Shown here: one piece after another, positions 804-19,278 of the stretch
Numbering within the stretch: the first letter of the stretch is position 1
Layout: each line of letters opens with the position of its first letter
From: Minisyncoccia bacterium
GTDB taxonomy: Bacteria > Patescibacteriota > Minisyncoccia > Phycocordibacterales > UBA9973
Length of the DNA stretch: 64,000 nt
Assembly (NCBI GenBank): GCA_049287305.1
Contig: JBAQFO010000013.1
Location: forward strand, 189 to 64,188
Direction of reading: 5' to 3'
Translations under genes and position numbers: made by a program
The notes under the pieces: model-generated
The model's database searches: none
The model's input: the letters and a program-made list of their open reading frames with translations, nothing else
What the model was told of the DNA's origin: nothing

Positions 804-841
804 CGGCGGCGGAATGCGAGAATCGGCTATTACATAGCGGT
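804..841 (-). repeat. partial direct copy of the tRNA-Gly 3' end (GCGGNATGCGAGAATCG...CATAGCGGT); putative att-site remnant
   Basis: 804-826 gcggcggaatgcgagaatcgg matches the plus-strand sequence of the real tRNA 3' half at 19208-19226 (gcgggatgcgagaatcgaa) in the same orientation; the flanking 9-mer catagcggt (833-841) also matches 19279-19287 next to the tRNA 5' end. Confidence 0.4.
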
Positions 842-1082
842 GCCCCATCCGCGTCTCGGACGAGATGATATCAAGCAGTATAAGCGTTTTCCGAAGAATA
901 TTCAACCAGTTTCCTAACCCCTCCGCATAGGGGGTCATTTTTTGTAAATGAGACAAATGAGACACGAAAAGGGTGTCTTGGGCACTGTCTCATTTACAGA
1001 CTGAATAGACACAATAGACAGTATAAAAAGGGCAGTTTCGGTATCTCTGGACTCCAAAGCCAATCGGCGTCATCCATTAGGA

Positions 1083-1400
1083 ATGGACGATATCGAAGCC
1101 GTCATAGAAGCCAGCAAGCATTTGAGATTCGAAGAAAACGACCCGAAAGGTACGCTCAATCGTATTTCCAGTTTGCCCGAATCCAAAGCTCGGATTAAGC
1201 GGGCAATCAAGGAACGCATTCGGCTACTGACGGCATCGTACATTTCTCTGGCTTCCTTCGTGCCTGACGAGGATGCGGACTATGCCGCCGGGCTTTACGG
1301 CGAGCAAAGTAAAGAGCGGTTGACACGGATTTTCAGGAAAGTGCTCAAAGAAACGAACAGGCTCGAAAAGGAAATGAGGGACTTTGACCCGTTCAATTGA
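1083..1400 (+). CDS. hypothetical protein (island-encoded)
   Basis: ORF only; charged, helical-looking; no motif recognised. Confidence 0.4.
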   Translation: MDDIEAVIEASKHLRFEENDPKGTLNRISSLPESKARIKRAIKERIRLLTASYISLASFVPDEDADYAAGLYGEQSKERLTRIFRKVLKETNRLEKEMRDFDPFN

Positions 1401-1476
1401 AATGCCAACAAATGCCAATAAAATGGGATTTTGAAGAGTAGCTAAAAACGGGCAAAAATGCTAGATTGCATAGATA

Positions 1477-2676
1477 ATGAAAGAGTATTTGCCAGAATGG
1501 AAGATATATTTGTGGAAAAAGCTGTTGCTCGATACTAGTGACTCGGACAGGGTATTTCAGCCCAACGATTTTATCTTCTTCGATACGGAGGACCAACAAC
1601 GCTTGGTATTGCTAAACGCACAAAAAGGCATTAACAGGATAAACTCATATACGATTGAACTCGCCAAAGGAGCAAAAACGGAAATCGGCGGTGCCGATGG
1701 GCCAAGCTCCGACCAGTATTATAAATTCGAGGTACGGAAGATCTTGTTAGCCCTCATTGAACTGGCCATCGAAGACCCTCGTTGTTTAAAGATCACAGAC
1801 ATCGAGCTAGGGAAAAAAGTGTTGCATGACTATCGCCAGAAAATGAAAGCCCGCCTGACGGATAAACAAAGAAGAGAGCTTGCAGTTCTTTCCATAACGG
1901 CTGGGCTTGGCGGACAACTACCTAAAAACGACCCCCTTCTTGTGGACCTTTTTTGCGGTTTACCGGAATACATATATAACAAAGTCGATAAAGGAGAGAA
2001 GCTCACGTTGCCAAATCTTGACATTCTAATTGACCAAACATCCGACGCAACCATCTTCTCTTCGCTTCGCTTCAAGCTCACCATAGACAAGAAAAATTTG
2101 CAGGCACGTCTAAACGCCTACGTCGCTGACTTTATAGCGGGCGAATTGATCCCGCCTCAAGGAGTTAGGCTCTTCATATTTGAGCAGCAGAAAAACAACA
2201 TCCTCGGTGCGATCCAGTCCTTAGCAGCGAGATACGGTAAAAAGAATATTGCGATAACTTTCGAGGAAGTCGCTCGGATTGGCGGTTGGGCGAACAAAGA
2301 TGAGCATCACTACCGATTTTATGAAACGATATTGGCTCTGGAGCAATTGGGAGAAATCGAAATAAAGGACCTACGGAAAGAAGAGGTTATCCTGTCGCTC
2401 GTAGAAAAAACCGTTCCGGAAAAAGAAAAAGTTGCCCCAGTAAAAGAGTTGTCCCCTGCGGATAAAAAGAAACTTTTCATTTTAGAGAAACTCAAAGAAG
2501 ATTGGGACTTGGCTCCCAAAGACGGGAGACAGGTGCAGCTTAAAATTTCTGGCGACCAGGTATATGAATGGATGATGGAACTCGGCATCAATTATTACTC
2601 GCTGGAAAACATCCTGCTTGGTTTCAAGAAAGAAGGCCTAATCATTAAGTACGAGTCGATAAACCCCGCCATGTAA
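1477..2676 (+). CDS. hypothetical protein, 399 aa (island-encoded)
   Basis: long ORF with typical coding composition; no recognisable motif. Confidence 0.5.
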   Translation: MKEYLPEWKIYLWKKLLLDTSDSDRVFQPNDFIFFDTEDQQRLVLLNAQKGINRINSYTIELAKGAKTEIGGADGPSSDQYYKFEVRKILLALIELAIEDPRCLKITDIELGKKVLHDYRQKMKARLTDKQRRELAVLSITAGLGGQLPKNDPLLVDLFCGLPEYIYNKVDKGEKLTLPNLDILIDQTSDATIFSSLRFKLTIDKKNLQARLNAYVADFIAGELIPPQGVRLFIFEQQKNNILGAIQSLAARYGKKNIAITFEEVARIGGWANKDEHHYRFYETILALEQLGEIEIKDLRKEEVILSLVEKTVPEKEKVAPVKELSPADKKKLFILEKLKEDWDLAPKDGRQVQLKISGDQVYEWMMELGINYYSLENILLGFKKEGLIIKYESINPAM

Positions 2677-2680
2677 ATAT

Positions 2681-3163
2681 ATGTCTAACGATTTATACAT
2701 ACAACTTCCAAATGACTTTGAAGAGCAGTACCTGAAATACAAGGCTGCTCTTTTGGGCGAAGAAATTAAGCCCGTGAAAACCGAGATTTTTCAGGAGGCA
2801 GATAAAAAATATTCCGACCTAAAAGAGCCGATAATGATAAAAACTTTGGGAATAGAAATTAGCGACTATTATATATCGAAGGGCAACGAAAAACGCGAAA
2901 TTAACGCTACAGATAAATGGCTCATATATTTCTTGTACTACAAATTTACGAAAAATAAAGACGAGTGTTTTAGACCCGAACGACTCGTGGCAGAAATGGA
3001 GGCGGAACTGGGCAAAAAAACTGAAAAATATATCGAAAATAGAATTGGGGAAATAAACAAACTGGTTAAAGAACTAATAGTAAAAGGCAGGACGAACATT
3101 GGAAAATTTATTAAGCACGAAAAAGGCCGCGGCTATCACTTAAATCCCAAAATTGTGATATAG
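2681..3163 (+). CDS. hypothetical protein, 160 aa (island-encoded)
   Basis: ORF starts 5 nt after the previous stop (operon-like); no motif recognised. Confidence 0.45.
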   Translation: MSNDLYIQLPNDFEEQYLKYKAALLGEEIKPVKTEIFQEADKKYSDLKEPIMIKTLGIEISDYYISKGNEKREINATDKWLIYFLYYKFTKNKDECFRPERLVAEMEAELGKKTEKYIENRIGEINKLVKELIVKGRTNIGKFIKHEKGRGYHLNPKIVI

Positions 3164-3257
3164 GCCACAAAATAATCCCAAGAAAATAAACGCTTGGGAA
3201 AATTCAATATTTTTTTCTCTGAAATACCTTTGTAAAATAAGGGTGTTTTTTAATATA

Positions 3258-3283
3258 TCACAAACAGGTCACAAAATTTGTGA
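3258..3283. promoter_or_regulatory. operator-like palindrome TCACAAA-a-TTTGTGA plus an upstream TCACAAA half-site, in the AT-rich region upstream of the methyltransferase operon
   Basis: perfect 7-bp inverted repeat with 1-nt spacer at 3269-3283; extra direct half-site at 3258-3264; lies in a 200-bp AT-rich intergenic region about 90 bp before the 3370 start. Confidence 0.3.
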
Positions 3284-3369
3284 TTCCTCTAGAAGTTAAA
3301 CTTAAGATAATTCTTTTCGAGAAGAAGATTATAAATTTTATTCACCTTCCTTTTCTCTAATCATACTAT

Positions 3370-4698
3370 ATGTCTAGAAAAAAGGAAAGCAAAAAACATA
3401 TGAGAGAAAATACATTACACGGAGAGAAGCTAACATGGGCGACGACGAGGCGAAAAGTCGTGGACTTGCTACCTAGTGGCTACAATCCACGAAAAATGAG
3501 CGAGAGTGAGCGTCGAGACCTCGAAGATTCCATTAAGGAGTTCGGTACGGTCGTGCCGGTGGTCTTGAATATCGGGACTAGAGATAACGTGCTCATAGGG
3601 GGCCACCAACGCGTCACCATTTATGCTGACCTCGGAATAAAAGAAGTCGATGCCATGGTGCCGAGCCGAGAGCTGAGCGAACAGGAAGAAAAAACGCTCA
3701 ACCTCCGGCTTAATAAAAATTTAGGAAGTTGGAACAATGAGCTCCTCAAGGAAATGGATATGGACTTGCTCCTCCATGTCGGATTTGACGACGAGGAATT
3801 GCAGGATTTGTTTGATGACGTGGACGTAATCGATGACGAGTTCGATGTCGAAAAAGCTATTAAAGAAACGAAGGTAGCGAAAGTGAAGCCGGGAGAAATC
3901 TGGCAGCTCGGCGAGCATCGGCTATTTGTAGGCGACTCGACAGACGCCGAAGGAGTGAAAAAATTAATGAACGGCGATCTGGCTGACGTCATATATTGTG
4001 ATCCGCCTTACAATATCGGCCTCGACTACTCCAAGGGGGTCGGCACCGATGGAAAGTATGAAGGCTCATACACCAGCAAAAAGGATTCCAAGAAAGATTC
4101 TGTCTATGCATCTTTCATTGACGCGAGCATCAAGGTGGCACTGGCAATTTCAAAACCAAATGCCCATATCTTCTACTGGTGCGACGAACGGTACATCTGG
4201 CTAACGCAAACGCTCTACCAGCAAAACAAAATCGACAGCAAGCGGGTGTGTTTGTGGATCAAAAATAATTTTAGCGTGACCCCGCAGGTGGCCTTCAACA
4301 AAGCATACGAGCCGTGCGTGTATGGAGTCATCGGGAAACCGCATCTCAATCGGAACTTCACCAATGCGAACGAACTCTTAAATCAGGAAATCGGGACGGG
4401 CAATCAGGTACACGAAGAAATTCTCGACATGATCAATCTCTGGATTGAAAAGAGGGACGCAGGACAGGACTACGCTCACCCTACGCAGAAGCCGGTGACC
4501 TTAAATGAAAAGCCTTTGAAAAGATGCAGTGCTCCAGGGCATATCGTCTTTTCCGGATTTGCCGGAAGCGGCAGCGACTTGATTGCCTGCGAGCAACTGA
4601 ATCGCAAATGGCGAGGAGTCGAACTCGATCCCATTTTTGCCACCGTCACTATTGACCGATGGGAGGCATTTACCAACCAAAAAGCGAAACTATTATGA
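3370..4698 (+). CDS. ParB-like nuclease (ParB/Srx) domain fused to an N6-adenine/N4-cytosine DNA methyltransferase
   Basis: N-terminal GGHQRV ParB-type motif; C-terminal DPPYNIG (motif IV of amino-MTases) and HPTQKP (AdoMet-binding motif I of the PF01555 family). Confidence 0.8.
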   Translation: MSRKKESKKHMRENTLHGEKLTWATTRRKVVDLLPSGYNPRKMSESERRDLEDSIKEFGTVVPVVLNIGTRDNVLIGGHQRVTIYADLGIKEVDAMVPSRELSEQEEKTLNLRLNKNLGSWNNELLKEMDMDLLLHVGFDDEELQDLFDDVDVIDDEFDVEKAIKETKVAKVKPGEIWQLGEHRLFVGDSTDAEGVKKLMNGDLADVIYCDPPYNIGLDYSKGVGTDGKYEGSYTSKKDSKKDSVYASFIDASIKVALAISKPNAHIFYWCDERYIWLTQTLYQQNKIDSKRVCLWIKNNFSVTPQVAFNKAYEPCVYGVIGKPHLNRNFTNANELLNQEIGTGNQVHEEILDMINLWIEKRDAGQDYAHPTQKPVTLNEKPLKRCSAPGHIVFSGFAGSGSDLIACEQLNRKWRGVELDPIFATVTIDRWEAFTNQKAKLL

Positions 4699-5453
4699 GT
4701 ACGACCATTAAGCAAGGAGACATATACAAGCTCGGAGAGCATATCATTGCCTGCGGCGATGCGTTGGATGCCAACTTTGTGAACAAGGTCATTGGCAACA
4801 GAAAAATCAGGGCGATACTTACAGACCCGCCGTATGGAGTCGACTATGTCCAAGGGAAAAAATATCTCAATCAAAAAATGGGGGTTGAGAGCGATAAGGA
4901 CATTGTCGGCGATCAACTGCAAACGGATGAAGAGTATGCGGAGTTCACTAGAAGCTGGCTCGGACTCGCCATTCCATATCTTGATTCATATAACGCCTGC
5001 TATATCTTCAACAGCGACCTGATGTTTCCCGCGCTCCGGCAAGGCATGAAACAAGCCGGATTCCATTACAGCCAGATGATCATCTGGCTCAAAAACCAAG
5101 TCGTCATGAATCGGAAAGACTATCTCATGATGTTCGAGTTAATCGCTTACGGCTGGTTCGGCAGGCACAAAATGGAGCGCTCGAAAGCAAAGAGCGTGCT
5201 TTTTCACCCGAAACCGAGTAAATCAAAACTGCACCCGACGCAAAAACCAGTGGGACTCTTGAGAAAGCTGATACCGAATTCTACGAAGATAAACGAATAT
5301 GTGTACGACCCGTTTCTTGGAAGCGGGAGTACGACCGTGGCTTGCGAACATCTCGGTCGAAGATGCATCGGCATAGATATTGATCCGGAATATGTGGCGA
5401 TAGCGATTGCCCGTGTGGAAAAGCTGACCGGCAAAAAAGCGGTAAAGGTATGA
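4659..5453 (+). CDS. DNA methyltransferase, N4/N6 (PF01555-like) family
   Basis: DPPYGV catalytic motif and HPTQKPVGLLRKLI AdoMet motif; start overlaps the previous gene by 40 nt (translational coupling). Confidence 0.8.
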   Translation: MGGIYQPKSETIMSTTIKQGDIYKLGEHIIACGDALDANFVNKVIGNRKIRAILTDPPYGVDYVQGKKYLNQKMGVESDKDIVGDQLQTDEEYAEFTRSWLGLAIPYLDSYNACYIFNSDLMFPALRQGMKQAGFHYSQMIIWLKNQVVMNRKDYLMMFELIAYGWFGRHKMERSKAKSVLFHPKPSKSKLHPTQKPVGLLRKLIPNSTKINEYVYDPFLGSGSTTVACEHLGRRCIGIDIDPEYVAIAIARVEKLTGKKAVKV

Positions 5454-5836
5454 GCGATGAATTTCCAAACCCAAAGAAATTCGGAGTGTACAAGACCCAA
5501 GACTTCGAGTCCTACGCTCTGTGGAAGGCGTTGCCCTCGTTCCTCCGGGGCCAGCCACGTCAAGTGCTTGAGAAATTCGGCATTGACGAGGAAATTGCGC
5601 TTGGCTTGCTTGAAATCAAAACGCAGGCCGAGTTCGCGAGGCGATTTAATATCAAGGATCCTGCAACTTTGACGGATTGGAACAAGAAATTGGAGAAGGA
5701 AGAAGTTATACCAAGAATCCACGCATGGGCCCGGAAGCTTACCCCGAACGTCATCTTTGCCCTCTACCGCACCGCGAGCAAACACGGCAAAGCACCCGAG
5801 GTAAAGGCGTGGCTGGAAATAGTGGAAGGCATGTAA
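5450..5836 (+). CDS. hypothetical small protein (phage-like, helix-rich; possibly DNA-binding)
   Basis: ATGA start/stop overlap with the upstream MTase gene; no definitive motif. Confidence 0.45.
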   Translation: MSDEFPNPKKFGVYKTQDFESYALWKALPSFLRGQPRQVLEKFGIDEEIALGLLEIKTQAEFARRFNIKDPATLTDWNKKLEKEEVIPRIHAWARKLTPNVIFALYRTASKHGKAPEVKAWLEIVEGM

Positions 5837-5842: not shown

Positions 5843-6067
5843 ATGAAATATCCAAATTTAGAAAAATTAGGAGATAAAAACATGAACGCGGAAGACGTGG
5901 CGTCGATTCTTTCGCAGACTCTGAAGGATGTAGCGGCGAGAAAAATTACGCTCAGGTACGCACTTGTTGTATCCCGTCTCGCCCTCGCTCTGTCTAAAAC
6001 AATTGAAACGGTGGAACTGAAGAAGCGAGTGGAATTTATCGAGCAAGTTCTCAAAAAACGAAAATGA
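5843..6067 (+). CDS. hypothetical small protein
   Basis: 74-aa ORF; sits between coupled genes in the same orientation. Confidence 0.35.
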   Translation: MKYPNLEKLGDKNMNAEDVASILSQTLKDVAARKITLRYALVVSRLALALSKTIETVELKKRVEFIEQVLKKRK

Positions 6068-7575
6068 AAAACCTAGCTACTTTGTTGAAAAAAGGAGACC
6101 TGACTCCTAAGGAACGGATGCTCTTTCTGGTACACGATGCGGTAAGTAAGGACAAAACTGGCAAGGAAATTCTGACAGAAGCGGACAGGCACGCATTGTC
6201 GGAAGGATGGAAACCACTGCATGACCGCGAGGTAGACGAATATAACCGCTACAATAAAGGGTGGCGGACAGAGGGTTCCCTTCGACTGGATGCCCAGACT
6301 ACTTACTTGAACGCTCAAGTTTCCCTGCTGCGGTCGAGCAGGCTTCTCGACTACGCCATGTGGAGCGACTCCCTGCAAAAAGGAAATGGATTTGGGAAAA
6401 TACATCTCTATGTAGACGAAAACGAAGCGCTGGATCTTATCCTAAAAAATACCGGGCTTCGATTCGATCAATTTTTACATAGCTATACGTTTCAAAAAAT
6501 AGACGAGGACTTAAAAAAAGACATTTTAGCTCTCTACGAGGACGCGGGAACCGAAAGTCAGTACCTCGACCAGGAAGAAATTATCGCGGACTTGTTTAAT
6601 GGCACAGAACAGCTGACAGTGGAAGCAAAGGAAAAACTGGCTGACATAATCGCTGACGTGCCTCACAACAGATACGCCGAGCTTTTCAAGGAAAAAGGCA
6701 TGAAGTCTGGAGCATGGTGGTTCTATGGGTATTTCGCCGAACTGCCGACTTTGGAAATAGCGAAAAGGTGGGCAGACGAGAACGAGATCAGCTATGATGC
6801 CAATAGCGAAACCTTGGCGGAGGATTTGTCTCTCAAGATCCAAGATTATGCGGAGAAAAACAAAGTTGAGGTCAGAGAGCTATTAAGAAGAACCATCCGT
6901 AAATGGTTGGACGAGGGCTTGTTCGAAAAGAAGTACGTTCCTTTATGCAATAGTGCTGACAAAACTACGTGCAACGACAGCGACACTAAACTTCCCCACA
7001 TGGAGATTTTAAAAAGGTGGCTCAAAGCCAAGGACGAAGCAGAGGCAGAAATACAAAAACTGATAGATGCTGGGCAGTTGAAAGTTGAAGTCAGGGAAAA
7101 AGAAATTTTTGAATCAAAGGAGAGTATGAAAATAATAACGGGTGAGAGTTTGTATAACCTCCAAGGCGGTTTCGACTTCGCTCAAGATTTCAAAAACCAA
7201 GTTGAAGGCCTGAAGCCGCTCGATTGCCTCATTTTGTTTTTGCGAAACGGCGATTTCTTGAAGGGCTACGCTTCTCTCTTGGCCTTTGCCGATATTTACA
7301 AAAAACTATCGAGGCTTTACGAGATCGATTTGGGCTACAAAATAGACGGATTCATCAATGATTTCAAGAAAAGCATAGAACAGTTGAATGACGAACTGCG
7401 ATACCTTGCCGAAAAGTTGGAAGGAAATATTTACCGGGAAAACAACACCAAATTCCTGGCCGAGGTTTTCATGGACCGTATGCTTATTCGCCTGGAGGAC
7501 ATAGAGCCGGGAACGGACGAAACGGAAATGCACTATGCTCAAGAGTTTGAAAAAATATTTCTGAATTTATTTTAA
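6064..7575 (+). CDS. hypothetical protein, 503 aa
   Basis: ATGA overlap with the upstream ORF; long acidic, helical ORF; no motif recognised. Confidence 0.5.
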   Translation: MKNLATLLKKGDLTPKERMLFLVHDAVSKDKTGKEILTEADRHALSEGWKPLHDREVDEYNRYNKGWRTEGSLRLDAQTTYLNAQVSLLRSSRLLDYAMWSDSLQKGNGFGKIHLYVDENEALDLILKNTGLRFDQFLHSYTFQKIDEDLKKDILALYEDAGTESQYLDQEEIIADLFNGTEQLTVEAKEKLADIIADVPHNRYAELFKEKGMKSGAWWFYGYFAELPTLEIAKRWADENEISYDANSETLAEDLSLKIQDYAEKNKVEVRELLRRTIRKWLDEGLFEKKYVPLCNSADKTTCNDSDTKLPHMEILKRWLKAKDEAEAEIQKLIDAGQLKVEVREKEIFESKESMKIITGESLYNLQGGFDFAQDFKNQVEGLKPLDCLILFLRNGDFLKGYASLLAFADIYKKLSRLYEIDLGYKIDGFINDFKKSIEQLNDELRYLAEKLEGNIYRENNTKFLAEVFMDRMLIRLEDIEPGTDETEMHYAQEFEKIFLNLF

Positions 7576-7619
7576 TCACAAACAGCAAAAGACTGCGTGT
7601 AGCACCGCAGCCCCCGCCG

Positions 7620-8867: not shown

Positions 8868-9152
8868 CTGCGAGCGGATGCCCGCGAGGACTATTTTACG
8901 AATTTTATTGGTTTTGCATAGATTTGTTTACAAAAAAGTGTTGAATTTATTGATTAAATTCATGACGCAACTATTGACTTTTGTGCGAAATATGATATAT
9001 TATATATGGTACCTGTTCCTTGCTAAGTACATACGTACAAAGTCTGCTCGTGACGAGCCAGAGGAATTATGGTACTAGAAAATTCTTATTGAGAATGTCT
9101 GCGGCATAGTGCCAAAGGCTCAATAAGGAAAACCCAACCTTGAGGGCAGACC

Positions 9153-9722: not shown

Positions 9723-9734
9723 AAAGGAACGAAA

Positions 9735-10667: not shown

Positions 10668-10720
10668 CCCTCAACCCGAGGGACGCGCCACAAGCCGCTC
10701 CTCAAAACACCTCTGGAGGT

Positions 10721-11209: not shown

Positions 11210-11234
11210 AAGCACTTTAGTTTGTTATCACCCC

Positions 11235-11272
11235 GAGGCCGGCGTTCGAAAGGACGCTGGCCTCATTTTTTT
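11235..11272 (+). terminator. rho-independent terminator closing the high-GC insert
   Basis: GAGGCCGGCG-ttcgaaagga-CGCTGGCCTC stem-loop followed by ATTTTTTT. Confidence 0.6.
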
Positions 11273-12425: not shown

Positions 12426-12993
12426 AAGACTTTGGAAAAATAAAGAAGCAAGGGCGGTTGACGAAGCTCTTGTAAAAAAGAAAGTATTCCATGGTAATGT
12501 TGCCGTGCCCTCAATACCTGGTGATTCACTAGAAAATTTTAGTCCGGATTTGGAACGCAGTATAGAGCATAATATTGAAATGTTTTTAGGTCCCTTGGTT
12601 TCAGGAAAAGGAGAAGAAATACCTGTTCTTACCAGAAGAGCCGACGATGGGAAAATTAGTCAAGAAATGGTTGCTCATGCGGAAGTAGATTTTGAAAGCG
12701 GCGAGATTATTAAGTTTACTGGGAAAGGTCTAGATAATCCAAAACGCGAGACAAAAGTAACTTTTTTTCTAGCTCTCGGACCTTATGATACAGCGGAGAT
12801 AGCTTATAGAGAACAGTTCAACAGGAAAGGAAAAGGATATATGAGTTTCTCTATTTCTTCCCTTGAATGGGAGTTCCAGCGTAATTGGCCGCAATTATCT
12901 GAAAAAGCAAAACGGGTACTTGAAGCTTCGGTTCAAAGATATAATTCAAAGAGCGGAGCACAACCGCCTGACCCGAAGTACTTTAAGAATTAA
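12388..12993 (+). CDS. hypothetical protein
   Basis: ORF overlaps the previous gene by 38 nt in another frame. Confidence 0.45.
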   Translation: MKLNLSHIKSMFERLWKNKEARAVDEALVKKKVFHGNVAVPSIPGDSLENFSPDLERSIEHNIEMFLGPLVSGKGEEIPVLTRRADDGKISQEMVAHAEVDFESGEIIKFTGKGLDNPKRETKVTFFLALGPYDTAEIAYREQFNRKGKGYMSFSISSLEWEFQRNWPQLSEKAKRVLEASVQRYNSKSGAQPPDPKYFKN

Positions 12994-13068
12994 TGGCTTA
13001 CTATTGCTTTTTTACTCAACTATGTTATAATATACAAATAAGGATTGCTAAATACATGAATTAAAAAT

Positions 13069-13959
13069 ATGGGAATGGAAGGACCAAACAGAACACAAGC
13101 CACAGAGGCAAAACAGCCGCCTAAGTTTAACCCCGAACCCGGTCGGCTGGATCGAAGGTTTTTAAGACAAGGAGACACCTTTTCTATTAGAGACTCTGCA
13201 GGAAATTTTTATGATTTTGCTCTAGAACCGGAACGCGTTCCTGGTGTTGTGCGGGCTAAATGCGTAAGAACTAACAACAAGCATTTTATGGGAGCGACAG
13301 GCAATCTTGCCGACATGAAAGAGGGGCAGCCATTCCGGATGTTCAGCGAGACTGCCCGCTGGGAAACAAATCCTGTTGATCAAGTGAAAGTTTCTAAGCG
13401 AGAGCTTAACGTGCTTTCCGCTATTCCAGGAAGTTGCGTGACTGTACAGGGCGAGGATGGTCGCTGGTATTCCTTTGAAATTCTTACCCGGGATATCCCC
13501 GGTCAGAAAATTGAATGGAAATGCGTGGCAGCTTCACCCGGAGAAGAGATGTTTGTGGGAACGTATGAAAATATTCCACCTCCAACCATTAAAGCGGGCG
13601 AAGAATTTTCCTTTGGGGGTAATCCGGCAAACAAGATCCGGGTTAAGGATGTAGAGTTTGAACTTAGTGTTCGCCCGGAAAGAGTTTTGGGGCTAAAGTT
13701 TAAAGAATTAATTGAAATGAGCATAGATTCTTCCCAGGATTCGGATCGGTTCGCGGAAGAACTTCGGGCATTACCAGATAAAATAATCGAGAGACTAAAA
13801 ACAATAGTGCAAGGTAAAATCTTGCCATTAAGCAGCGATCCGACAGCTCTGAAAAAAGATACTGCAAAAAGAAATGAATTGAGAATGTATACAGTCAAAG
13901 CATCGGCCATACAAAATGAAAGCGACGAAAGGGCTAAAAGATCCCGCAAGCAATCTTAA
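13069..13959 (+). CDS. hypothetical protein, starts MGMEGP
   Basis: ORF; its 5' end shares a 25-bp identical sequence with the next gene. Confidence 0.5.
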   Translation: MGMEGPNRTQATEAKQPPKFNPEPGRLDRRFLRQGDTFSIRDSAGNFYDFALEPERVPGVVRAKCVRTNNKHFMGATGNLADMKEGQPFRMFSETARWETNPVDQVKVSKRELNVLSAIPGSCVTVQGEDGRWYSFEILTRDIPGQKIEWKCVAASPGEEMFVGTYENIPPPTIKAGEEFSFGGNPANKIRVKDVEFELSVRPERVLGLKFKELIEMSIDSSQDSDRFAEELRALPDKIIERLKTIVQGKILPLSSDPTALKKDTAKRNELRMYTVKASAIQNESDERAKRSRKQS

Positions 13960-14016
13960 ATTCTGTGTTATGATATAAAGGTCGAGATTATTAAACTAAA
14001 AATATGAATTAAAAAT

Positions 14017-14406
14017 ATGGGAATGGAAACACGGAAAACCGAAAAAGAGCAGTGGCAGGAAAAAACCGCTCTAGCTAAAAATTTTCAGCTAACTCCTGAT
14101 ATGAGCGGAGATTTCACGCGACTTCGTTCAACGCTTGGACTACATCACCATTTTACAGGTCCGGCTACTCCCCAACGAATTGAGGAGTTTGTTGTGGGAA
14201 AAATTGAAGAAGAACGCGGTATGCAGCAGAGCCGTGAGGCAAGCCCCGCAGAGACTTCTGGGAAGGGATATGGAGCAGAAGAAGCTCAAAGTAAGGCAGA
14301 ATATTTTACTGAAAGCCTAAGATTGCTGGAAAGATTCCTTGCAAGACACGGCGGAGACAATGCTCGTGCAAGATTAGGCATTGAAAAAGACGAAGCTTTA
14401 GGTTAG
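14017..14406 (+). CDS. hypothetical protein, starts MGMETR
   Basis: ORF; 5' end atgaattaaaaatatgggaatggaa identical to the 5' end of 13069. Confidence 0.45.
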   Translation: MGMETRKTEKEQWQEKTALAKNFQLTPDMSGDFTRLRSTLGLHHHFTGPATPQRIEEFVVGKIEEERGMQQSREASPAETSGKGYGAEEAQSKAEYFTESLRLLERFLARHGGDNARARLGIEKDEALG

Positions 14407-14556: not shown

Positions 14557-14579
14557 AATGTATGTATGGAACATACATT
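14557..14579. promoter_or_regulatory. perfect 9-bp inverted repeat AATGTATGT-atgga-ACATACATT overlapping the recombinase start; candidate recombinase binding/att core or operator
   Basis: read directly from sequence; the annotated ATG (14566) lies in the 5-nt spacer. Confidence 0.35.
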
Positions 14580-15885
14580 AACAAGGCCGATGGGGATGGA
14601 GACCAAAATATCAATCCCCGTAAGCATTAAATATTGCCTATACGCCAGAAAGAGCACCGAGCAAGAGGACAAGCAGGTTCTCTCCATTGACTCCCAGATC
14701 AAGGAAATGGAGAAAATGGCAGTAGCTGAGAATTTGGAGATCGTGGTCAGAAAACAGGAATCTCACTCAGCTAAGGAAGCGGGCCAGCGACCCATCTTCA
14801 ACGAAATCGTCGAAGAATTAAAGGCCGGAAAATACAGTGGCATCTTAACCTGGGCACCGGATCGAATCGCTCGAAATGCGGGCGATCTCGGCAGGATCGT
14901 GGACTTAATGGACCAAAAGAAGCTCATTGAAATCCGCACCTACGGACAGAAATTCATGAACACGCCGAACGACAAGTTCATGTTGATGATTTTGGGTTCA
15001 CAGGCGAAACTGGAGAACGACAACAAGGTTATAAATGTAAAGCGAGGGCTGAGAGCGAGAGTATCGATGGGACTAAGGCCGTCACTTGCTCCGACTGGAT
15101 ACTTAAACAGCAAGAACAAGGATGAGAAGTGCCAGGTATTCGTTGACCCGAAACGTGCCCCGATTATCAAGCAAATGTTTGAGAAAGTAGCCAATGAAAA
15201 TTACTCCGGCAGAAAAATATGCCAGTGGCTTAAGGAAATTAAATTCAAGACGAGGACCAACAAAGAGCTTACGCTAGGCAATGTGTACCGCCTTCTTAGA
15301 ATGACTTTCTATTATGGAGTGTTTGAATATCCTGCCGGTAGTGGAGAATGGTACACCGGCAAGCATACGCCCATAATTACTCAGTCGTTATTTGAAGCGG
15401 TGCAGGAAAAGATAAAAGTAGAAAAGAAAAAGGCCTACGGCCGAGAGTTCGCTTTTACTCGAATGCTCCATTGTGGATACTGCGAGAGCGGCATAACGGC
15501 CGAGGAGAAAATAAAGGAACTGAAAGATGGTGGATCAAACTCGCATATATACTATAGATGCACTAAAATAAAAAATCGCGACTGCCCAAACGAGTCGGTG
15601 AAAGAATCCATTCTCATAGACGAGATGCTGCCTATTATCGATACCATGAGTTTGGACAAGAGCGAGCTGAAGCAAAAGCTTGAAAAGGAAGTAGCTAGAT
15701 ATGCGCTCTTCCAAACCGGTGTGCTTAAGCAAGATTTGCCGCATTCGAAAAAAGACAGAAATATCAGTATTAAAACATTCGCCAAATATATGCTCCAGCA
15801 CGGCACGCTTTTGGAGAAGCGAGAGGTAATGTCGTGCATAAAGAGCAAAATATTTCTGAAAGACAAGAAATTGGCGGTGGAATAA
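14566..15885 (+). CDS. large serine recombinase (resolvase/invertase-type catalytic domain plus recombinase and zinc-ribbon domains)
   Basis: YARKST...S(I)DSQ catalytic serine region at the N-terminus; conserved ...RIARN... resolvase motif; C-terminal CGYC...YYRC zinc ribbon. An alternative start at 14590 (MGMETK) is possible. Confidence 0.85.
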   Translation: MEHTLTRPMGMETKISIPVSIKYCLYARKSTEQEDKQVLSIDSQIKEMEKMAVAENLEIVVRKQESHSAKEAGQRPIFNEIVEELKAGKYSGILTWAPDRIARNAGDLGRIVDLMDQKKLIEIRTYGQKFMNTPNDKFMLMILGSQAKLENDNKVINVKRGLRARVSMGLRPSLAPTGYLNSKNKDEKCQVFVDPKRAPIIKQMFEKVANENYSGRKICQWLKEIKFKTRTNKELTLGNVYRLLRMTFYYGVFEYPAGSGEWYTGKHTPIITQSLFEAVQEKIKVEKKKAYGREFAFTRMLHCGYCESGITAEEKIKELKDGGSNSHIYYRCTKIKNRDCPNESVKESILIDEMLPIIDTMSLDKSELKQKLEKEVARYALFQTGVLKQDLPHSKKDRNISIKTFAKYMLQHGTLLEKREVMSCIKSKIFLKDKKLAVE

Positions 15886-15893: not shown

Positions 15894-18800
15894 TTATTCT
15901 AATTTCTCTAGAAACAATTTGCCTAACTTGTGTTCACGACTGTCCTCTGGTTGTTGTTCAAGCTCGGTACCATATCCCTTTAATTCCTTAAGGAAGGTGG
16001 TTTTTCTGCTGTATAAGGATTTAATTGCCGCCAAAGTATTCAGCATCGTTTCTTTTTCATCTAAACCAACGCTCCTTGCAGTATCAAAAAGTTTTCTTGG
16101 AAACCCATCCTTACGAGAACTTGGAAAGTCGTTGAGAACATGAGGGTCTTGAATAAAGCCGCATATCTCATTTTTCCTTGCAAGCGGTTCCCCGGTTTTT
16201 TCTAAGATGGTAGACCAAATATCAATGACTTTTTCTTTGTTTTCATTTGTAAGCAATTTGAACGAAGGAACAAGAAAGCGATAGGGTGTATTGTGTCGCG
16301 GATGATCGGCACCCAGCGATTCACCCCATTCAAGTAACTTGGGAGCTATTTCATTCACATCCTTATCTATGAGAGAAGGCCGACTTCCTTCTAATTTAGA
16401 GAGCACATGATTAGTGATCTCAAAATCTTTTGCCTCCAATACTGCATCTTTAAGAGAAGATATGTATAACTGACCCCCCTGAAGCGCCCCAAACATTTTG
16501 AGTATATCGATAATTTGGTCACGCTCTCCGGCATCGATAGTTGCAATTAACCGAGTCACTAAAGGAGTGATTAATTTTTCTCGGATGCTAATCTTCTGTT
16601 CCTCAACGCCCTTAAATAAAGTTGTAAGACGAGGAATATCAAGTCCAATGGCATGAGTTTTAAATATTTCGATAAAGTGTTGCTTCGCTTCTGGAGAATC
16701 CGTAATCAGCTTTTTAATTGCGGGAAGAAAATTGACATAATATGTAGTTGCGATATTTGGACTATTTATATAATCACTATACTGCTTTGCTACTTCAAAA
16801 ATAAGTTTCTCGGGAACCTTATCCTCAAGTACTAACTCATTCACAAATACAGCAAGTTCTTCTGGACCCTGACCCCAACTTTTTTTGTGCAAAACTTCAT
16901 GAATGTAGACAAATAATTTTTGTATCTGTGCTTCTTTAAGAAACGGAAATAGGGATTTTATGACCTCGAGATTTTGCTTTTGATTTTTATTCAGTGCTGT
17001 TGGTTCAATTTGCTGGACAGCATTCAAAAGTAAATCAGTTAAGGTCGTGTTTGCATATACGCCCAGCGCTCCTTCGTATTTACCAATCTCTTGCAAACTA
17101 GCAAGGACGTCTGGTACGTAAGAAACGCCTTGGTCATCAACATATTGGTAAGCTTTTTGTAAAGATTCTGCGACTTTCTTTTGTGCAGCAACAGGAACAA
17201 TTTTGTAGTTTTCTCCGTAGGCTTCGCTGTATTCCATAAACAGCTCATTCTCGGTCTCAAGTGGTTTTACATGTTCGTTAATGATGATGTTCCGGTCAGT
17301 AGGGCCGGATGCGTGAGTAAGAACCGACAACAACCCCTTTGCCGAAAATTCTTTGATATTTGCCAATTGACTTGTATGTGCTAAATGAGATGAAAATACA
17401 TCTGCAATCTTGGTTTTCTTCACCTCAGGGATTTCAGGAAATACTTCTTCAATGACTGACAAAATATTGAATACGATAGCAGCTTTACCTTGGTTTTTCT
17501 TTTCAACAACCTTATCTTCAAGTAGCTTCACTATCGATTTTTTTACTGCATCGTCCGCCCCTTTGAGTAATTCTTTAATGGAGTCAGATTTCCCGGTAAA
17601 GAGTGCAATCGCTAACTCAGAATCTTCACTTTCATAGCCCCCATATCCTTCGCGTTTTAAATTAATAAACTGCTCAGGGTTTCTAGAGGTAAAAGGTCGC
17701 GAAGCTTGAAGGAAATCTCCAAGTTCAGGATTTTGCTTTAATTCTGCTTGTATATTTTGTTCATGCGGCGAATCAAGTTTACGACCTCTAAGGGAACCCT
17801 CGGTCATTGAAAGAACATCAGGGTCCTTCTTTATGATGCCGAAAAACTTTGGCCATTCCTCTTGTAGGATAATTAGCTTAGCCAGAAAGGAGAGGTTGCC
17901 AGTTATAAATCCTTTATCAAGATTTTCCTGTTCCTCTTGTGCCAGTGCTAGTAAATAACTAGCACTTAAGTTGTTGTAGAATTGCTTAATTTTCCTCGGG
18001 GTATGTGAGTAGGCAGTCAATACTAAACTGGCCACATTTTCTTTTTCCGTATCATCTTTATAAGGTATGACCACATTGCTAGCAATCTTATCAATATATT
18101 TTTCTAGATCACCTCTTATAAATGGCGACAACCGAACGGTTGCTTGAAAAAACTTCTTTAAAAACTCACGGCTCTGTTTGTCCTTCTCTGGTATCGTAAG
18201 CTCGTCATTTAAGAGGCCCTCTTTGAGATGATTAATAAGAGCTTCTTCATCAACTGGCACTAAATATACACAACCCTCCACATTCAGGAATGTTTTTATT
18301 GTCCCCAGTAACTCAATTGCTGTTTCATTTGTACAACGATCAAGGTTGTCGATGGTAACTACGATGCGTTTTTTACCAATTTCGGATGCTTTTTTTACAT
18401 ATTGTCTAAAGACATCTTCGAATTGCTCGTTTGAAAATAGAGGCTTATCTTCCTCGTCAAATTTTTTAATTTGGATTAACTTAGTCGCCCTGTGTGCCAA
18501 ACCAAGGATGAGTGCGGGAATCAAGGGAGCCAAAAAAGTAATTAGGGAGCGGGGTGTCCATTGAAATTGGACAGCAAATATATACCATCCGATGTACCAT
18601 GCAATAAGCTCAAAGATGAGATTTTTTATCTCCTCTACATTCCACTCTAAATCTCCAGATTGTCGCGTTCTTTTGATTGTTTTATAGAGTCGAACCGGAA
18701 GCGTATCGTCATTAATTGAAAGGTCTTCTTTCATCTGCTTCAGAAATTGTCTGTAGAAAGCGTCTTTTTGATATTTCCAAGCGTCAAAATATACAAATCC

Positions 18801-19052
18801 TATACCCGGGGTTTCGGCAAGTCGTTTTTTTAAAAATTTGTTTACAAGCGTAGTTTTTCCAACACCCCATTTACCAAGAAGGCCTACAACGAAAGGGGTT
18901 TGGCATTCTCTTACTAAGGCTTCGAGGGTGTTTATGTAGTGGTCAAATCCAAAGTTATCTTCGTCAGATGGTTCATCCACCACAAAAAGGGATTTGTTTT
19001 TAAACAAATTCTTTTCATAAACTTCTTTTTTCTTTTGATCCCACCAAGTCAT
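15894..19052 (-). CDS. KAP-family P-loop NTPase
   Basis: Walker A GLLGKWGVGKTTL; two hydrophobic helices (AWYIGWYIFAVQF...LITFLAPLIPALILGLA) inserted between Walker A and the Walker B-like VVTIDNLDRC, the KAP-family hallmark; 1052 aa. Confidence 0.75.
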   Translation of the reverse strand: MTWWDQKKKEVYEKNLFKNKSLFVVDEPSDEDNFGFDHYINTLEALVRECQTPFVVGLLGKWGVGKTTLVNKFLKKRLAETPGIGFVYFDAWKYQKDAFYRQFLKQMKEDLSINDDTLPVRLYKTIKRTRQSGDLEWNVEEIKNLIFELIAWYIGWYIFAVQFQWTPRSLITFLAPLIPALILGLAHRATKLIQIKKFDEEDKPLFSNEQFEDVFRQYVKKASEIGKKRIVVTIDNLDRCTNETAIELLGTIKTFLNVEGCVYLVPVDEEALINHLKEGLLNDELTIPEKDKQSREFLKKFFQATVRLSPFIRGDLEKYIDKIASNVVIPYKDDTEKENVASLVLTAYSHTPRKIKQFYNNLSASYLLALAQEEQENLDKGFITGNLSFLAKLIILQEEWPKFFGIIKKDPDVLSMTEGSLRGRKLDSPHEQNIQAELKQNPELGDFLQASRPFTSRNPEQFINLKREGYGGYESEDSELAIALFTGKSDSIKELLKGADDAVKKSIVKLLEDKVVEKKNQGKAAIVFNILSVIEEVFPEIPEVKKTKIADVFSSHLAHTSQLANIKEFSAKGLLSVLTHASGPTDRNIIINEHVKPLETENELFMEYSEAYGENYKIVPVAAQKKVAESLQKAYQYVDDQGVSYVPDVLASLQEIGKYEGALGVYANTTLTDLLLNAVQQIEPTALNKNQKQNLEVIKSLFPFLKEAQIQKLFVYIHEVLHKKSWGQGPEELAVFVNELVLEDKVPEKLIFEVAKQYSDYINSPNIATTYYVNFLPAIKKLITDSPEAKQHFIEIFKTHAIGLDIPRLTTLFKGVEEQKISIREKLITPLVTRLIATIDAGERDQIIDILKMFGALQGGQLYISSLKDAVLEAKDFEITNHVLSKLEGSRPSLIDKDVNEIAPKLLEWGESLGADHPRHNTPYRFLVPSFKLLTNENKEKVIDIWSTILEKTGEPLARKNEICGFIQDPHVLNDFPSSRKDGFPRKLFDTARSVGLDEKETMLNTLAAIKSLYSRKTTFLKELKGYGTELEQQPEDSREHKLGKLFLEKLE

Positions 19053-19207
19053 TGGTGAGATTGTTTAAGGTGAAGCGGCATGAAACAATCATACCATTTT
19101 CTTTCTAAAAATCTAACTTAATTTTTGGTTCGATTCCCGCATGGGGTAATCGATTTTGCAACTCAAAAACCATTGAATTTATTAGGCCTCCGCATCGACC
19201 TTGACTG

Positions 19208-19278
19208 TGCGGGATGCGAGAATCGAACTCGCGTCTAATCCTTGGGAAGGACTCATTTTACCACTAAACTAATCCCGC
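19208..19278 (-). tRNA. tRNA-Gly (anticodon CCC)
   Basis: reverse complement GCGGGATTAGTTTAGTGGTAAAATGAGTCCTTCCCAAGGATTAGACGCGAGTTCGATTCTCGCATCCCGCA folds as a cloverleaf: 7-bp acceptor stem, T-arm GCGAG-TTCGATT-CTCGC, anticodon stem AGTCC/GGATT with loop TTCCCAA; no encoded CCA. Confidence 0.8.

What the first reader, a model, noticed from the sequence alone, without database searches (positions are those of the whole stretch)
804..19278. About 18.4-kb integrated mobile island at tRNA-Gly(CCC), bounded by a direct repeat of the tRNA 3' end
The tRNA-Gly gene (19208-19278, minus strand) has its 3' end facing lower coordinates. About 18.4 kb away, in the same orientation, 804-826 (gcggcggaatgcgagaatcgg) repeats the tRNA 3' half (gcgggatgcgagaatcgaa at 19208-19226), and even the 9-mer beyond the tRNA 5' end (catagcggt) recurs at 833-841. 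This is the classic signature of an element that integrated into the 3' end of a tRNA gene, regenerating the tRNA at one junction and leaving the displaced 3' fragment at the other. Everything between is mobile-type cargo: a ParB-MTase fusion, a second MTase, an IS256, a foreign-GC insert, many orphan hypotheticals, a large serine recombinase and a KAP NTPase. Genes outside the island (glutaredoxin on one side; ppsA/eno on the other) are housekeeping. This island is the best place to look for an undescribed anti-phage or phage-like system. Not one of its roughly 15 non-mobility ORFs has a function I can assign.
Basis: partly seen in the sequence, partly recalled or inferred. Interest (0 to 1): 0.75.

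Follow-up and report, generated by a model that had tools for sequence, protein, structure and literature searches.

The report
Serine-recombinase mobile element at tRNA-Gly
An 18.4-kb mobile element sits between a tRNA-Gly gene and a glutaredoxin gene of a tiny "candidate phyla radiation" bacterium; it belongs to an apparently undescribed family that uses a large serine recombinase, not the usual tyrosine integrase, to insert at the 3' ends of tRNA genes.

Summary

- **Repeat:** tRNA-Gly(CCC) lies at 19207-19278 (-). A 17-nt piece of its 3' part (19209-19225) recurs 16/17 at 809-825, exactly 18,400 bp away. Chance expectation is 0.02 per window.
- **Empty site:** in 10 of 11 related Parcubacteria species, tRNA-Gly lies 58-209 nt from the glutaredoxin gene. 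The window copy at 809-825 sits where the tRNA 3' end sits in the empty site.
- **Family:** the insert has a conserved backbone: a winged-helix protein, a ParB-methyltransferase, a second methyltransferase, 128-aa and 74-aa proteins, and a ~505-aa helical protein with no informative fold match. Cargo and a large serine recombinase follow, then a tRNA gene whose 3' end faces the element. Seven independent loci use six different tRNAs.
- **Mobility:** one 9.7-kb relative differs at 1 base in 9,696 between two hosts whose tRNA-Ser genes differ. The junction maps to the last 10 nt of the tRNA.
- **Not a phage or conjugative element:** no phage or conjugation genes were found, and there are no relatives in IMG/VR.
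- **Cargo here:** an IS256-like unit, a 2.1-kb high-GC block, orphan secreted proteins, and a defence-type KAP NTPase.

Verdict: a new variant of a known kind, of moderate interest.

The parts
19207..19278 (-). tRNA-Gly(CCC), intact. Its 3' end faces the element. This is the attL side.
   Evidence: ARAGORN; Rfam RF00005, 68.5 bits.
19209..19225 (+). att repeat copy inside the tRNA. It covers the T-loop, the T-stem 3' strand and the acceptor 3' strand.
809..825 (+). Second att repeat copy (16/17 identical), on the attR side. It lies 4 nt from the conserved glutaredoxin upstream motif.
515..751 (-). Glutaredoxin gene. Host flank, outside the element.
   Evidence: Pfam PF00462, E = 5e-21. It lies next to tRNA-Gly in relatives.
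840..860 (+). Left-terminal motif of the element, GTGCCCCATCCGCGTCTCGGA. Homology to the related element in L083 starts here.
   Evidence: Alignment with L083.
943..998 (+). Conserved hairpin near the left end: a 12-bp outer stem plus an inner stem. Function unknown.
   Evidence: DNA fold z-score -5.0. 86% conserved in L083.
1083..1400 (+). 105-aa orphan ORF.
   Evidence: No Pfam, PHROG, NCBIfam or PADLOC hit. Called as a gene in the sister assembly.
1477..2676 (+). 399-aa backbone protein with a winged-helix DNA-binding fold. Candidate replication initiator or regulator (inference).
2681..3163 (+). 160-aa backbone ORF.
   Evidence: Homologs at the same position in L083 and L095. No family hit.
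3370..4698 (+). Fusion of a ParB N-terminal domain with an N6/N4 DNA methyltransferase. Backbone gene.
   Evidence: Pfam; phrog_498, E = 4e-91. Conserved in all related loci.
4659..5453 (+). Second N6/N4 DNA methyltransferase. Backbone gene.
   Evidence: Pfam PF01555, E = 9e-33. Conserved in relatives.
5450..5836 (+). 128-aa backbone protein. A weak HTH-like hit is the only lead.
   Evidence: 62-99% identical in relatives. NCBIfam RacR-like, E = 1e-3, below the family cutoff.
5843..6067 (+). 74-aa backbone protein.
   Evidence: Conserved in relatives. No family hit.
6064..7575 (+). 503-aa backbone protein, mostly alpha-helical, with no informative structural match. Hallmark of the family.
7583..8917 (-). 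IS256-like unit (transposase 7679-8830), immediately after the stop codon of the 503-aa gene.
   Evidence: PF00872, E = 6e-84. Homology bounds come from comparison with L106 and L083. A possible 10-bp duplication TGAATTTATT lies at 7562-7571 and 8942-8951.
9151..11250 (+). High-GC cargo block (GC 0.574). Its ORFs are 9285-9722, 9735-10667 (310 aa, with a signal peptide) and 10721-11209 (with an N-terminal transmembrane segment).
   Evidence: No Rfam family. 24 homologs of the 310-aa protein, in both high- and low-GC contexts.
11385..12425 (+). 346-aa cargo ORF with a twin-arginine-like signal (SRRDFIK).
   Evidence: Translation. TIGR01409 borderline. No PDB relative.
12388..14406 (+). Three orphan cargo ORFs: about 191 aa, 294 aa and 129 aa. 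The last two share a 33-nt leader plus start.
   Evidence: (repeat D2).
14566..15885 (+). Large serine recombinase, the presumed integrase of the element.
   Evidence: Resolvase, Recombinase and Zn_ribbon_recom domains. phrog_95 integrase, E = 5e-60. YARKST motif present. Nearest solved relative is SPbeta SprA/YokA.
15894..19052 (-). 1052-aa KAP-family P-loop NTPase. Candidate anti-phage cargo, lying between the recombinase gene and the tRNA-proximal arm.
   Evidence: PF07693, E = 1.5e-40. PADLOC PDC-S20 5e-24, PifA 2e-17, QatA 2e-15.
19128..19142 (+). Inverted T-arm-like copy, GTTCGATTCCCGCAT, in the tRNA-proximal arm. Significance uncertain.
   Evidence: It matches the tRNA T-arm at 14 of 15 bases (the query pattern carried a degenerate base at the differing position). 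Chance expectation for the pattern is 0.31 per window, so support is modest.
19290..21707 (-). ppsA. Host flank, outside the element.
   Evidence: Pfam. Up to 82% identical to Parcubacteria orthologs.

Best explanation
Window ~826-19208 is one integrated copy of a site-specific integrative element in the chromosome of a Parcubacteria/Minisyncoccia (candidate phyla radiation) bacterium.

**Proposed mechanism**
- The element's large serine recombinase (14566-15885) recombines a site on the circular element (attP) with a site covering the 3' end of tRNA-Gly(CCC) (attB).
- attP carries a copy of the tRNA's 3' part, so the tRNA stays intact after insertion (19207-19278).
- A second copy of 17 nt is left at the far junction (809-825), next to the glutaredoxin upstream motif.

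**Composition**
- Conserved backbone (~840-7575): a winged-helix protein, a 160-aa protein, a ParB-methyltransferase, a second methyltransferase, 128-aa, 74-aa and 503-aa proteins, plus the recombinase and a tRNA-proximal arm.
- Variable cargo: an IS256-like unit, a high-GC block with a secreted protein, four orphan ORFs, and a KAP NTPase that is probably an anti-phage gene.

**Shown here**
- The insertion relative to empty sites in related species.
- The repeat.
- The family architecture.
- Recent horizontal movement of a relative between hosts.

**Inferred**
- The serine recombinase is the integrase.
- The crossover lies in the last ~10 nt of the tRNA.
- The two methyltransferases protect the element's DNA from restriction in new hosts.
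- The winged-helix protein acts in replication or regulation.
- The mode of transfer between cells is unknown.
For: **Insertion**
- Empty site in 10 of 11 related species.
- The in-silico deletion product is colinear with L007 at 82% identity.
- Synteny resumes beyond the window start.

**Repeat**
- 16/17 identical at a spacing of 18,400, with 0.02 expected by chance.

**Family architecture**
- In all seven independent loci with enough sequence downstream of the 503-aa gene, a large serine recombinase follows within 0.2-7 kb. After it comes a tRNA gene on the opposite strand, with its 3' end facing the element. The loci are:
  - window: tRNA-Gly(CCC)
  - L084/L085: tRNA-Ser(TGA)
  - L088: tRNA-Ser(TGA)
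  - L087: tRNA-Leu(GAG)
  - L090: tRNA-Gln(TTG)
  - L093: tRNA-Ser(GCT)
  - L095: tRNA-Asn(GTT)
- Sources for the architecture.

**Mobility**
- L084 and L085 differ at 1 base in 9,696 nt. Both flanks differ, and the adjoining tRNA-Ser genes differ at 12 positions, starting 10 nt into the tRNA.
- L085 has a perfect 19-nt repeat of the tRNA-Ser 3' part at its far end.
- An 84% nt-identical backbone lies at a different chromosomal place, after rbfA, in L083.

**Recombinase**
- It is intact, with all three domains and the catalytic-serine motif.
- No other recombinase was found apart from the IS transposase.

**Cargo between recombinase and tRNA arm**
- This has a precedent in L088, which keeps the same ~65-nt arm as L084.
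Against: - No excised circle or same-species empty site was observed, and the attP junction was not found in IMG/VR.
- Direct repeats were found only in the window and in L085, not in L084 or L087. L090 does not reach its left end.
- The recombinase is 3.3 kb from the tRNA, with the KAP gene in between, so the KAP gene could be a separate acquisition.
- Nothing in the backbone is recognisable as a replication, packaging or transfer function, so autonomy is unproven.
- The element may be decaying: it carries an IS insertion, a foreign high-GC block and a mismatch in the repeat.
Confidence: 0.85

Rival explanations
1. It is a cryptic or defective prophage, or a phage satellite, that integrated at the tRNA.
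For: The ParB-methyltransferase, the second methyltransferase and the serine recombinase match phage protein families: phrog_498, phrog_67 and phrog_95. Integration at a tRNA is typical of temperate phages.
Against: - No capsid, portal, terminase, tail or lysis hit appeared for any ORF in Pfam, PHROGs or NCBIfam.
- The 503-aa model has no match among predicted viral structures.
- IMG/VR holds no relative of the 503-aa protein, of its family profile, or of the recombinase.
- Minimal family members are only ~6-10 kb.
Confidence: 0.1
2. The 18.4 kb is a composite built by several independent insertions at a hotspot, not a single element. On this reading the KAP NTPase, the high-GC block and the IS each arrived separately, and only part of the interval still moves.
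For: - The locus is a hotspot in relatives. L006, L013, L027, L004 and L008 all carry insertions around tRNA-Gly, glutaredoxin or tRNA-Arg.
- The KAP gene lies between the recombinase and the tRNA.
- An inverted T-arm-like fragment lies at 19128-19142.
- The GC content is heterogeneous: KAP 0.385, high-GC block 0.574.
Against: - Only one pair of tRNA-derived direct repeats bounds the interval.
- L088 shows that cargo can sit between the recombinase and a conserved tRNA-proximal arm within one element.
- The IS and the block are nested inside the backbone-to-recombinase interval, so they would travel with it.

This rival is compatible with the main explanation for the nested parts.
Confidence: 0.25
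3. The repeat is a chance match and the interval is ancestral DNA that relatives have lost, or else an assembly chimera.
For: The repeat is short (17 nt). The closest available relatives are different species, with ppsA at most 82% identical.
Against: - Chance expectation for the repeat is 0.02.
- The copy sits exactly at the position of the tRNA 3' end in the empty site.
- Ten species would each have had to lose the same interval precisely.
- The same backbone occurs at other tRNAs and next to different host genes.
- Three independent assemblies agree across both junctions.
Confidence: 0.03

Closest known systems
tRNA-targeting genomic islands and integrative elements driven by tyrosine integrases (Islander/TIGER-type islands; tycheposons of Prochlorococcus, bioRxiv 10.1101/2020.12.28.424599)
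   Same: - Insertion at the 3' end of a tRNA gene, with the tRNA kept intact.
- A partial tRNA copy at the distal junction.
- Integrase near the tRNA-proximal end.
- Variable cargo, including defence genes.
- Occurrence in small, streamlined genomes.
- Different family members use different tRNAs.
   Different: - The recombinase here is a large serine recombinase, not a tyrosine recombinase.
- The backbone genes are unrelated. No primase, helicase or capsid genes were recognised.
- The hosts are Parcubacteria.
Elements moved by large serine recombinases: SPbeta (SprA), phiC31 and Bxb1 phages, SCCmec (CcrAB, inserted at the 3' end of rlmH). The comparison of targets is from my own knowledge.
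   Same: - Domain architecture of the recombinase: Resolvase, Recombinase and zinc ribbon.
- The nearest solved relative is SprA/YokA.
- Like SCCmec, insertion is at the 3' end of a conserved gene that stays functional.
   Different: - Those elements target protein-coding genes.
- Mageeney et al. 2020 (PMC7192596) found tRNA or tmRNA targets for only 14 of 297 serine-integrase islands, against 44.5% for tyrosine integrases. They state that such use had not been reported before and needs experimental proof.
- Here every family member examined abuts a tRNA.
KAP-family NTPase defence proteins (PifA of the F plasmid, QatA, PADLOC candidate PDC-S20)
   Same: The N-terminal KAP P-loop domain of the 1052-aa protein matches PDC-S20 (5e-24), PifA (2e-17) and QatA (2e-15).
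   Different: - No QatBCD partner genes lie nearby.
- The C-terminal ~690 residues match no Pfam family, and a 668-residue C-terminal stretch has no solved relative.
- Its scores against the NCBIfam QatA model are far below the family cutoff: 72 bits against 600.
IS256 / Mutator-family insertion sequences
   Same: The transposase matches PF00872 at E = 6e-84, and the unit is about 1.3 kb long.
   Different: - Terminal inverted repeats were not resolved.
- A homologous unit sits at the same spot, right after the 503-aa gene, in the diverged element L106. This could reflect inheritance with the element or a preferred target.

Membership tests
Site-specific integrative element / genomic island at a tRNA gene | The DNA is absent from the same locus in related genomes (an empty site exists). 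| tested here: met
   The gap between tRNA-Gly and glutaredoxin is 58-209 nt in 10 of 11 related species. The reconstructed site is colinear with L007 at 82% identity.
Site-specific integrative element / genomic island at a tRNA gene | Flanked by direct repeats derived from the tRNA 3' part, with the tRNA intact. | tested here: met
   809-825 versus 19209-19225, 16/17 identical, chance expectation 0.02. The tRNA scores 68.5 bits.
Site-specific integrative element / genomic island at a tRNA gene | Encodes its own site-specific recombinase near one end. | tested here: met
   The large serine recombinase is at 14566-15885. It lies 3.3 kb from the tRNA, with one cargo gene between. Relatives have it 0.1-1.4 kb from the tRNA.
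Site-specific integrative element / genomic island at a tRNA gene | Excises as a circle and re-integrates. | not testable with these tools
   No reads were available. The attP junction pattern is absent from IMG/VR. Indirect support comes from L084 and L085, which share a 99.99% identical element in different hosts.
Large serine recombinase (serine integrase) | N-terminal resolvase catalytic domain with the nucleophile serine, plus Recombinase and zinc-ribbon domains. | tested here: met
   PF00239 at 1e-21, PF07508 at 1e-17, PF13408 at 5e-6. The YARKST motif is at residues 26-31. The PDB hit is SprA/YokA.
Large serine recombinase (serine integrase) | Recombination at a 2-bp crossover between attP and attB, with directionality controlled by a separate factor. 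| not testable with these tools
   The crossover could only be bounded, to the last 10 nt of the tRNA in L084/L085. No directionality factor was identified.
Tailed prophage or phage satellite | Capsid, portal, terminase, tail or packaging genes. | tested here: not met
   None in Pfam, PHROGs or NCBIfam. No BFVD fold match for the 503-aa protein. No IMG/VR relatives.
Integrative conjugative or mobilizable element | Relaxase, coupling protein or type IV secretion genes. | tested here: not met
   No such Pfam hit for any ORF. The only lead is a sub-threshold TraK_N hit at E = 0.0065. An oriT was not tested.
Tycheposon | A tRNA-specific tyrosine recombinase together with a primase/helicase replication module. 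| tested here: not met
   No Phage_integrase, primase or helicase domain in the interval.
Qat anti-phage system | QatA together with QatB, QatC and QatD. | tested here: not met
   Only a KAP NTPase is present. The neighbours are the recombinase and the tRNA.
IS256 family | Mutator-type DDE transposase flanked by inverted repeats and an 8-9 bp target duplication. | tested here: inconclusive
   The transposase criterion is met. A 10-bp direct repeat lies at 7562-7571 and 8942-8951, but clear terminal inverted repeats were not found.

The most novel reading that the evidence does not exclude
The conserved backbone may define a new kind of self-propagating element of candidate-phyla-radiation bacteria: an integrating plasmid or a virus with unrecognised replication, packaging or transfer functions. 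That backbone is the winged-helix protein, two methyltransferases, the 128-aa and 74-aa proteins, and the ~505-aa helical protein with no informative fold match. Its serine recombinases would then form a lineage specialised, as a rule and not as an exception, on the 3' ends of many different tRNA genes.
Probability: 0.25. Interest if true: 0.8.

Novelty: new variant of a known kind. Interest (0 to 1): 0.55.

Why it matters
- **Little-known hosts.** Mobile elements of candidate-phyla-radiation bacteria are barely known. These bacteria have genomes of about 1 Mb (from my own knowledge), so an 18-kb element is a sizeable fraction of the genome.
- **Unusual target for the enzyme.** tRNA genes are regarded as the preserve of tyrosine integrases. 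Use of a tRNA by a serine integrase was described in 2020 as unreported and in need of proof (PMC7192596). A family in which every member examined pairs a large serine recombinase with a tRNA 3' end, across six tRNA species, gives a natural set of integrase and att-site pairs. These could be used to test how serine integrases change specificity, and possibly as genome-engineering tools aimed at conserved tRNA sites.
- **Unknown backbone proteins.** The backbone proteins have confident predicted structures but no known function, so they are concrete targets for discovery.
- **Route for defence genes.** The element shows how defence genes such as the KAP NTPase, and foreign high-GC genes, can enter these streamlined genomes.

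Tried and rejected
1. **Phage annotation.** PHROGs gave nothing for 15 orphan ORFs.
2. **Other libraries.** NCBIfam and PADLOC gave nothing for the backbone.
4. **PDB sequence searches.** Searches with the two backbone family profiles, two cargo ORFs (346 aa and 296 aa) and the KAP C-terminal stretch found nothing.
5. **IMG/VR scans.** Four scans found no relatives and no attP junction.
6. **High-GC block as a structured RNA.** No Rfam match. It contains ORFs with a signal peptide and protein homologs instead.
7. **Crossover in the T-loop.** I first placed it there because both repeats start at the T-loop CGA. I rejected that placement for the L084/L085 element: the two hosts keep their own T-stems and their own position 66, and the shared DNA ends 10 nt into the tRNA.
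8. **"Internal tRNA remnant" in L088.** The match at 13784-13799 lies inside a 1322-aa ORF and is a chance match.
9. **Truncation of the 503-aa gene by the IS.** Rejected. Homologs end at the same residue (F503 is nearly invariant), so the IS sits just after the stop codon.
10. **Contig concatenation.** Rejected. ORFs run across the break points of the sister assembly, and independent contigs overlap them.
11. **Paralogy of the 294-aa and 129-aa ORFs.** They share a leader but are not related proteins.

Full report
**1. Observation**

ARAGORN finds a single tRNA in the 64-kb window: tRNA-Gly(CCC) at 19207-19278 on the minus strand. Rfam agrees at 68.5 bits.

The repeat finder reports 809-825 GCGGAATGCGAGAATCG against 19209-19225 GCGGGATGCGAGAATCG. 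The two copies are 16/17 identical, in the same orientation and 18,400 bp apart. With up to two mismatches, the tRNA-derived 17-mer is expected 0.02 times per window, and no shuffle out of 100 gave two matches.

Its placement near both junctions is unlikely to be chance, but I cannot explain it.

The high-GC block is real. GC is 0.574 at 9151-11250, against 0.446 for the island and 0.43 for the rest of the window.

**2. Host and empty site**

The ppsA protein finds its closest relatives, up to 82% identity, in metagenome-assembled genomes named Minisyncoccia, Paceibacterota or Nomurabacteria. These are Parcubacteria of the candidate phyla radiation. NCBI labels the window's own 503-aa protein as "Minisyncoccia bacterium", on a 64,710-nt contig.

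In eleven related species the gene order is eno-ppsA-tRNA-Gly(CCC)-glutaredoxin-tRNA-Arg(CCT)-tRNA-Phe(GAA). In ten of them only 58-209 nt separate tRNA-Gly from the glutaredoxin start.

L007 has the tRNA in the same orientation as the window. There the tRNA 3' end is followed after 8 nt by CTTGACACGTATGCTATAAT and then the glutaredoxin start. In the window the 809-825 copy is followed after 4 nt by the same motif.

Joining the tRNA side to the glutaredoxin side at the repeat gives a sequence colinear with L007 at 128/157 identities.

A sister assembly contig, L113, is 100% identical to window 1-1923. It continues beyond the window start with tRNA-Arg(CCT), tRNA-Phe and HSP20, colinear with L001.

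Both junctions are covered by independent, identical contigs (L114, L113, L081). The interval is therefore a clean insertion. It is neither an assembly artefact nor a chance repeat.

**3. What the insert is**

None of the orphan ORFs matches Pfam, PHROGs, NCBIfam or PADLOC.

The 503-aa protein (6064-7575) has 182 homologs, none with a Pfam domain. A profile search of 1.84 billion representative proteins found 261 clusters at 50% identity. The members that carry organism names are from Parcubacteria or Minisyncoccia.

Genomic contexts of these homologs show a conserved order:
- a ~395-aa protein
- sometimes a ~160-aa protein
- the ParB-methyltransferase
- the second methyltransferase
- a ~125-aa protein
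- a ~70-aa protein
- the ~505-aa protein
- variable genes
- a large serine recombinase
- a tRNA gene on the opposite strand, with its 3' end facing the element

This holds for all seven independent loci that extend far enough:

| Locus | tRNA |
|---|---|
| window | Gly(CCC) |
| L084/L085 | Ser(TGA) |
| L088 | Ser(TGA) |
| L087 | Leu(GAG) |
| L090 | Gln(TTG) |
| L093 | Ser(GCT) |
| L095 | Asn(GTT) |

The recombinases of L093 and L095 were confirmed with Pfam. My rough estimate, not a computed value, is that a correctly oriented tRNA falls that close by chance only a few percent of the time per locus.

**4. Mobility and the junction**

L084 and L085 come from different assemblies. They share a segment with a single difference in 9,696 nt (locus positions 5946-15641). 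Differences then become dense, with 12 in the next 80 nt, which are the body of tRNA-Ser. Both outer flanks are unrelated.

The two hosts' tRNA-Ser genes each keep a self-complementary T-stem and their own 7:66 pair (sequences). The element therefore contributes only the terminal TGGCGGAGAG, which is CTCTCCGCCA on the tRNA strand. This places the crossover within the last 10 nt of the tRNA or at their edge.

L085 also carries a perfect 19-nt copy of the tRNA-Ser 3' part at its far end. This mirrors the window's 17-nt copy.

L083 carries a backbone 84% identical in DNA to window 1398-7570, but it lies downstream of rbfA and not at tRNA-Gly. Homology to the window begins at 840 (GTGCCCC...), which sets the left limit of the shared backbone.

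By analogy, most of the window's 809-825 copy may be an element-borne mimic of the T-arm and acceptor, not displaced host DNA. The window alone cannot decide this.

**5. The recombinase**

The 439-aa protein has Resolvase, Recombinase and zinc-ribbon domains and the YARKST catalytic-serine motif. Its nearest solved relative is the SPbeta integrase SprA/YokA. No tyrosine recombinase is present in the interval.

In the window, the KAP NTPase gene lies between the recombinase and the tRNA. L088 shows the same arrangement: a 367-aa gene sits there, while the ~65-nt tRNA-proximal arm shared with L084 is kept. Cargo at this position is therefore compatible with a single element.

**6. Backbone proteins**

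The two methyltransferases are of the kind carried by phages and plasmids. I infer, from general knowledge, that they protect incoming DNA from restriction.

No capsid, terminase, portal, tail, relaxase or secretion genes were found. The family is also absent from IMG/VR. How the element moves between cells is unknown.

**7. Cargo in this copy**

- **IS256-like unit.** Homology bounds are ~7583-8917, directly after the stop codon of the 503-aa gene. A homologous unit occupies the same spot in L106, at 76% nt identity.
- **High-GC block.** It encodes a 310-aa protein with a signal peptide. Its 24 homologs occur in a 68%-GC contig and also in low-GC contexts, where the gene again stands out in GC. 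This points to horizontal transfer from a GC-rich source.
- **Orphan ORFs.** There are four, one with a twin-arginine-like signal.
- **KAP NTPase.** The N-terminal domain of this 1052-aa protein matches the defence candidates PDC-S20, PifA and QatA. There are no Qat partner genes, and the ~690 C-terminal residues are unassigned.

**8. Comparison with what is known**

Functionally, the element works like the tRNA-targeting islands driven by tyrosine integrases, such as tycheposons. It fails their defining feature, because the recombinase is of the serine type.

Mageeney et al. (PMC7192596) found that 44.5% of tyrosine-integrase islands use tRNA or tmRNA genes, against 14 of 297 serine-integrase islands. 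They wrote that such use by a serine integrase had not been reported and needs experimental proof.

Five full-text searches found no description of such elements in Patescibacteria. Absence from that library is not proof of novelty.

**9. Verdict**

The general phenomenon, an island at a tRNA, is ordinary. Two specifics are not: the pairing of serine recombinases with tRNA 3' ends in every family member examined, and a conserved backbone of unknown function in candidate-phyla-radiation bacteria. I rate it a new variant of a known kind, with interest 0.55.

Noticed in passing
L001-L008, L013, L021, L027 (tRNA-Gly next to ppsA); L007:12441-12462: The orientation of tRNA-Gly(CCC) relative to ppsA flips among related species. 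It is on the same strand in the window, L007 and L013, and on the opposite strand in the others. tRNA-Arg(CCT) flips as well. L007 carries a duplicated 22-nt 5' fragment of tRNA-Gly about 65 nt upstream of the gene. This suggests repeated site-specific inversions or integrations at these tRNAs.
   Followed up: partly
L006:14283-15851; L095:9453-11186: L006 has a different large serine recombinase inserted between glutaredoxin and tRNA-Arg(CCT). Its ORF runs across the tRNA on the other strand. In L095 the recombinase ORF overlaps the 3' end of tRNA-Asn by 40 nt. In some elements the att site may therefore lie inside the recombinase gene.
   Followed up: partly
window 13048-13080 and 13996-14028; 14590-14601: A 33-nt leader plus start codon (94% identical) precedes two unrelated ORFs of 294 and 129 aa, both beginning MGME. 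The recombinase also has MGME at residues 9-12. This may be a shared translation or regulatory signal.
   Followed up: partly
window 833-841, 19278-19286: The 9-mer CATAGCGGT lies just 5' of the tRNA (including base 1) and also 7 nt from the 809-825 copy, as if the remnant were a tRNA with its interior deleted. No such feature exists in L085. Unexplained.
   Followed up: partly
window 943-998: A strong nested hairpin (DNA fold z-score -5.0) lies near the left end of the element. It is conserved at 86% in L083 although the surrounding intergenic DNA is not. Function unknown; it could be a terminator, an origin or a binding site.
   Followed up: partly
window 19128-19142: An inverted copy of the tRNA T-arm, GTTCGATTCCCGCAT, differs from the tRNA sequence by one base. 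It lies 66 nt from the tRNA 3' end, in the tRNA-proximal arm. Statistical support is modest, with 0.31 expected per window.
   Followed up: partly
window 7583-8917; L106:~420-1760; L083:9870-11142: An IS256-like unit lies directly after the 503-aa gene in both the window and the diverged element L106. A related copy lies two genes further on in L083. Either it was inherited with the element or the IS has a preferred target.
   Followed up: partly
window 9735-10667; L111:459-1400; L109:8001-8876: The 310-aa secreted protein of the high-GC block belongs to a small family of 24 proteins. The family occurs in a 68%-GC contig and also in low-GC contigs. In the low-GC contig L111 the gene itself is GC-rich (0.50 against 0.36 for the locus), a sign of repeated horizontal transfer.
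   Followed up: partly
window 33-503 (ORF continues beyond the window start; L113:1421-1978): A 185-aa orphan ORF occupies about 0.7 kb between glutaredoxin and tRNA-Arg(CCT). In several relatives (L001, L002, L003, L005, L027) these lie within about 35 nt of each other. This may be another small insertion at the neighbouring tRNA.
   Followed up: no
window ~1910-1923: The sister short-read assembly (GCA_049303715.1) breaks inside the 399-aa gene, with contigs 7 and 8 overlapping by 14 nt. A Logan contig and the window's own contig read straight through. The cause of the break is unknown; strain variation is one possibility.
   Followed up: no
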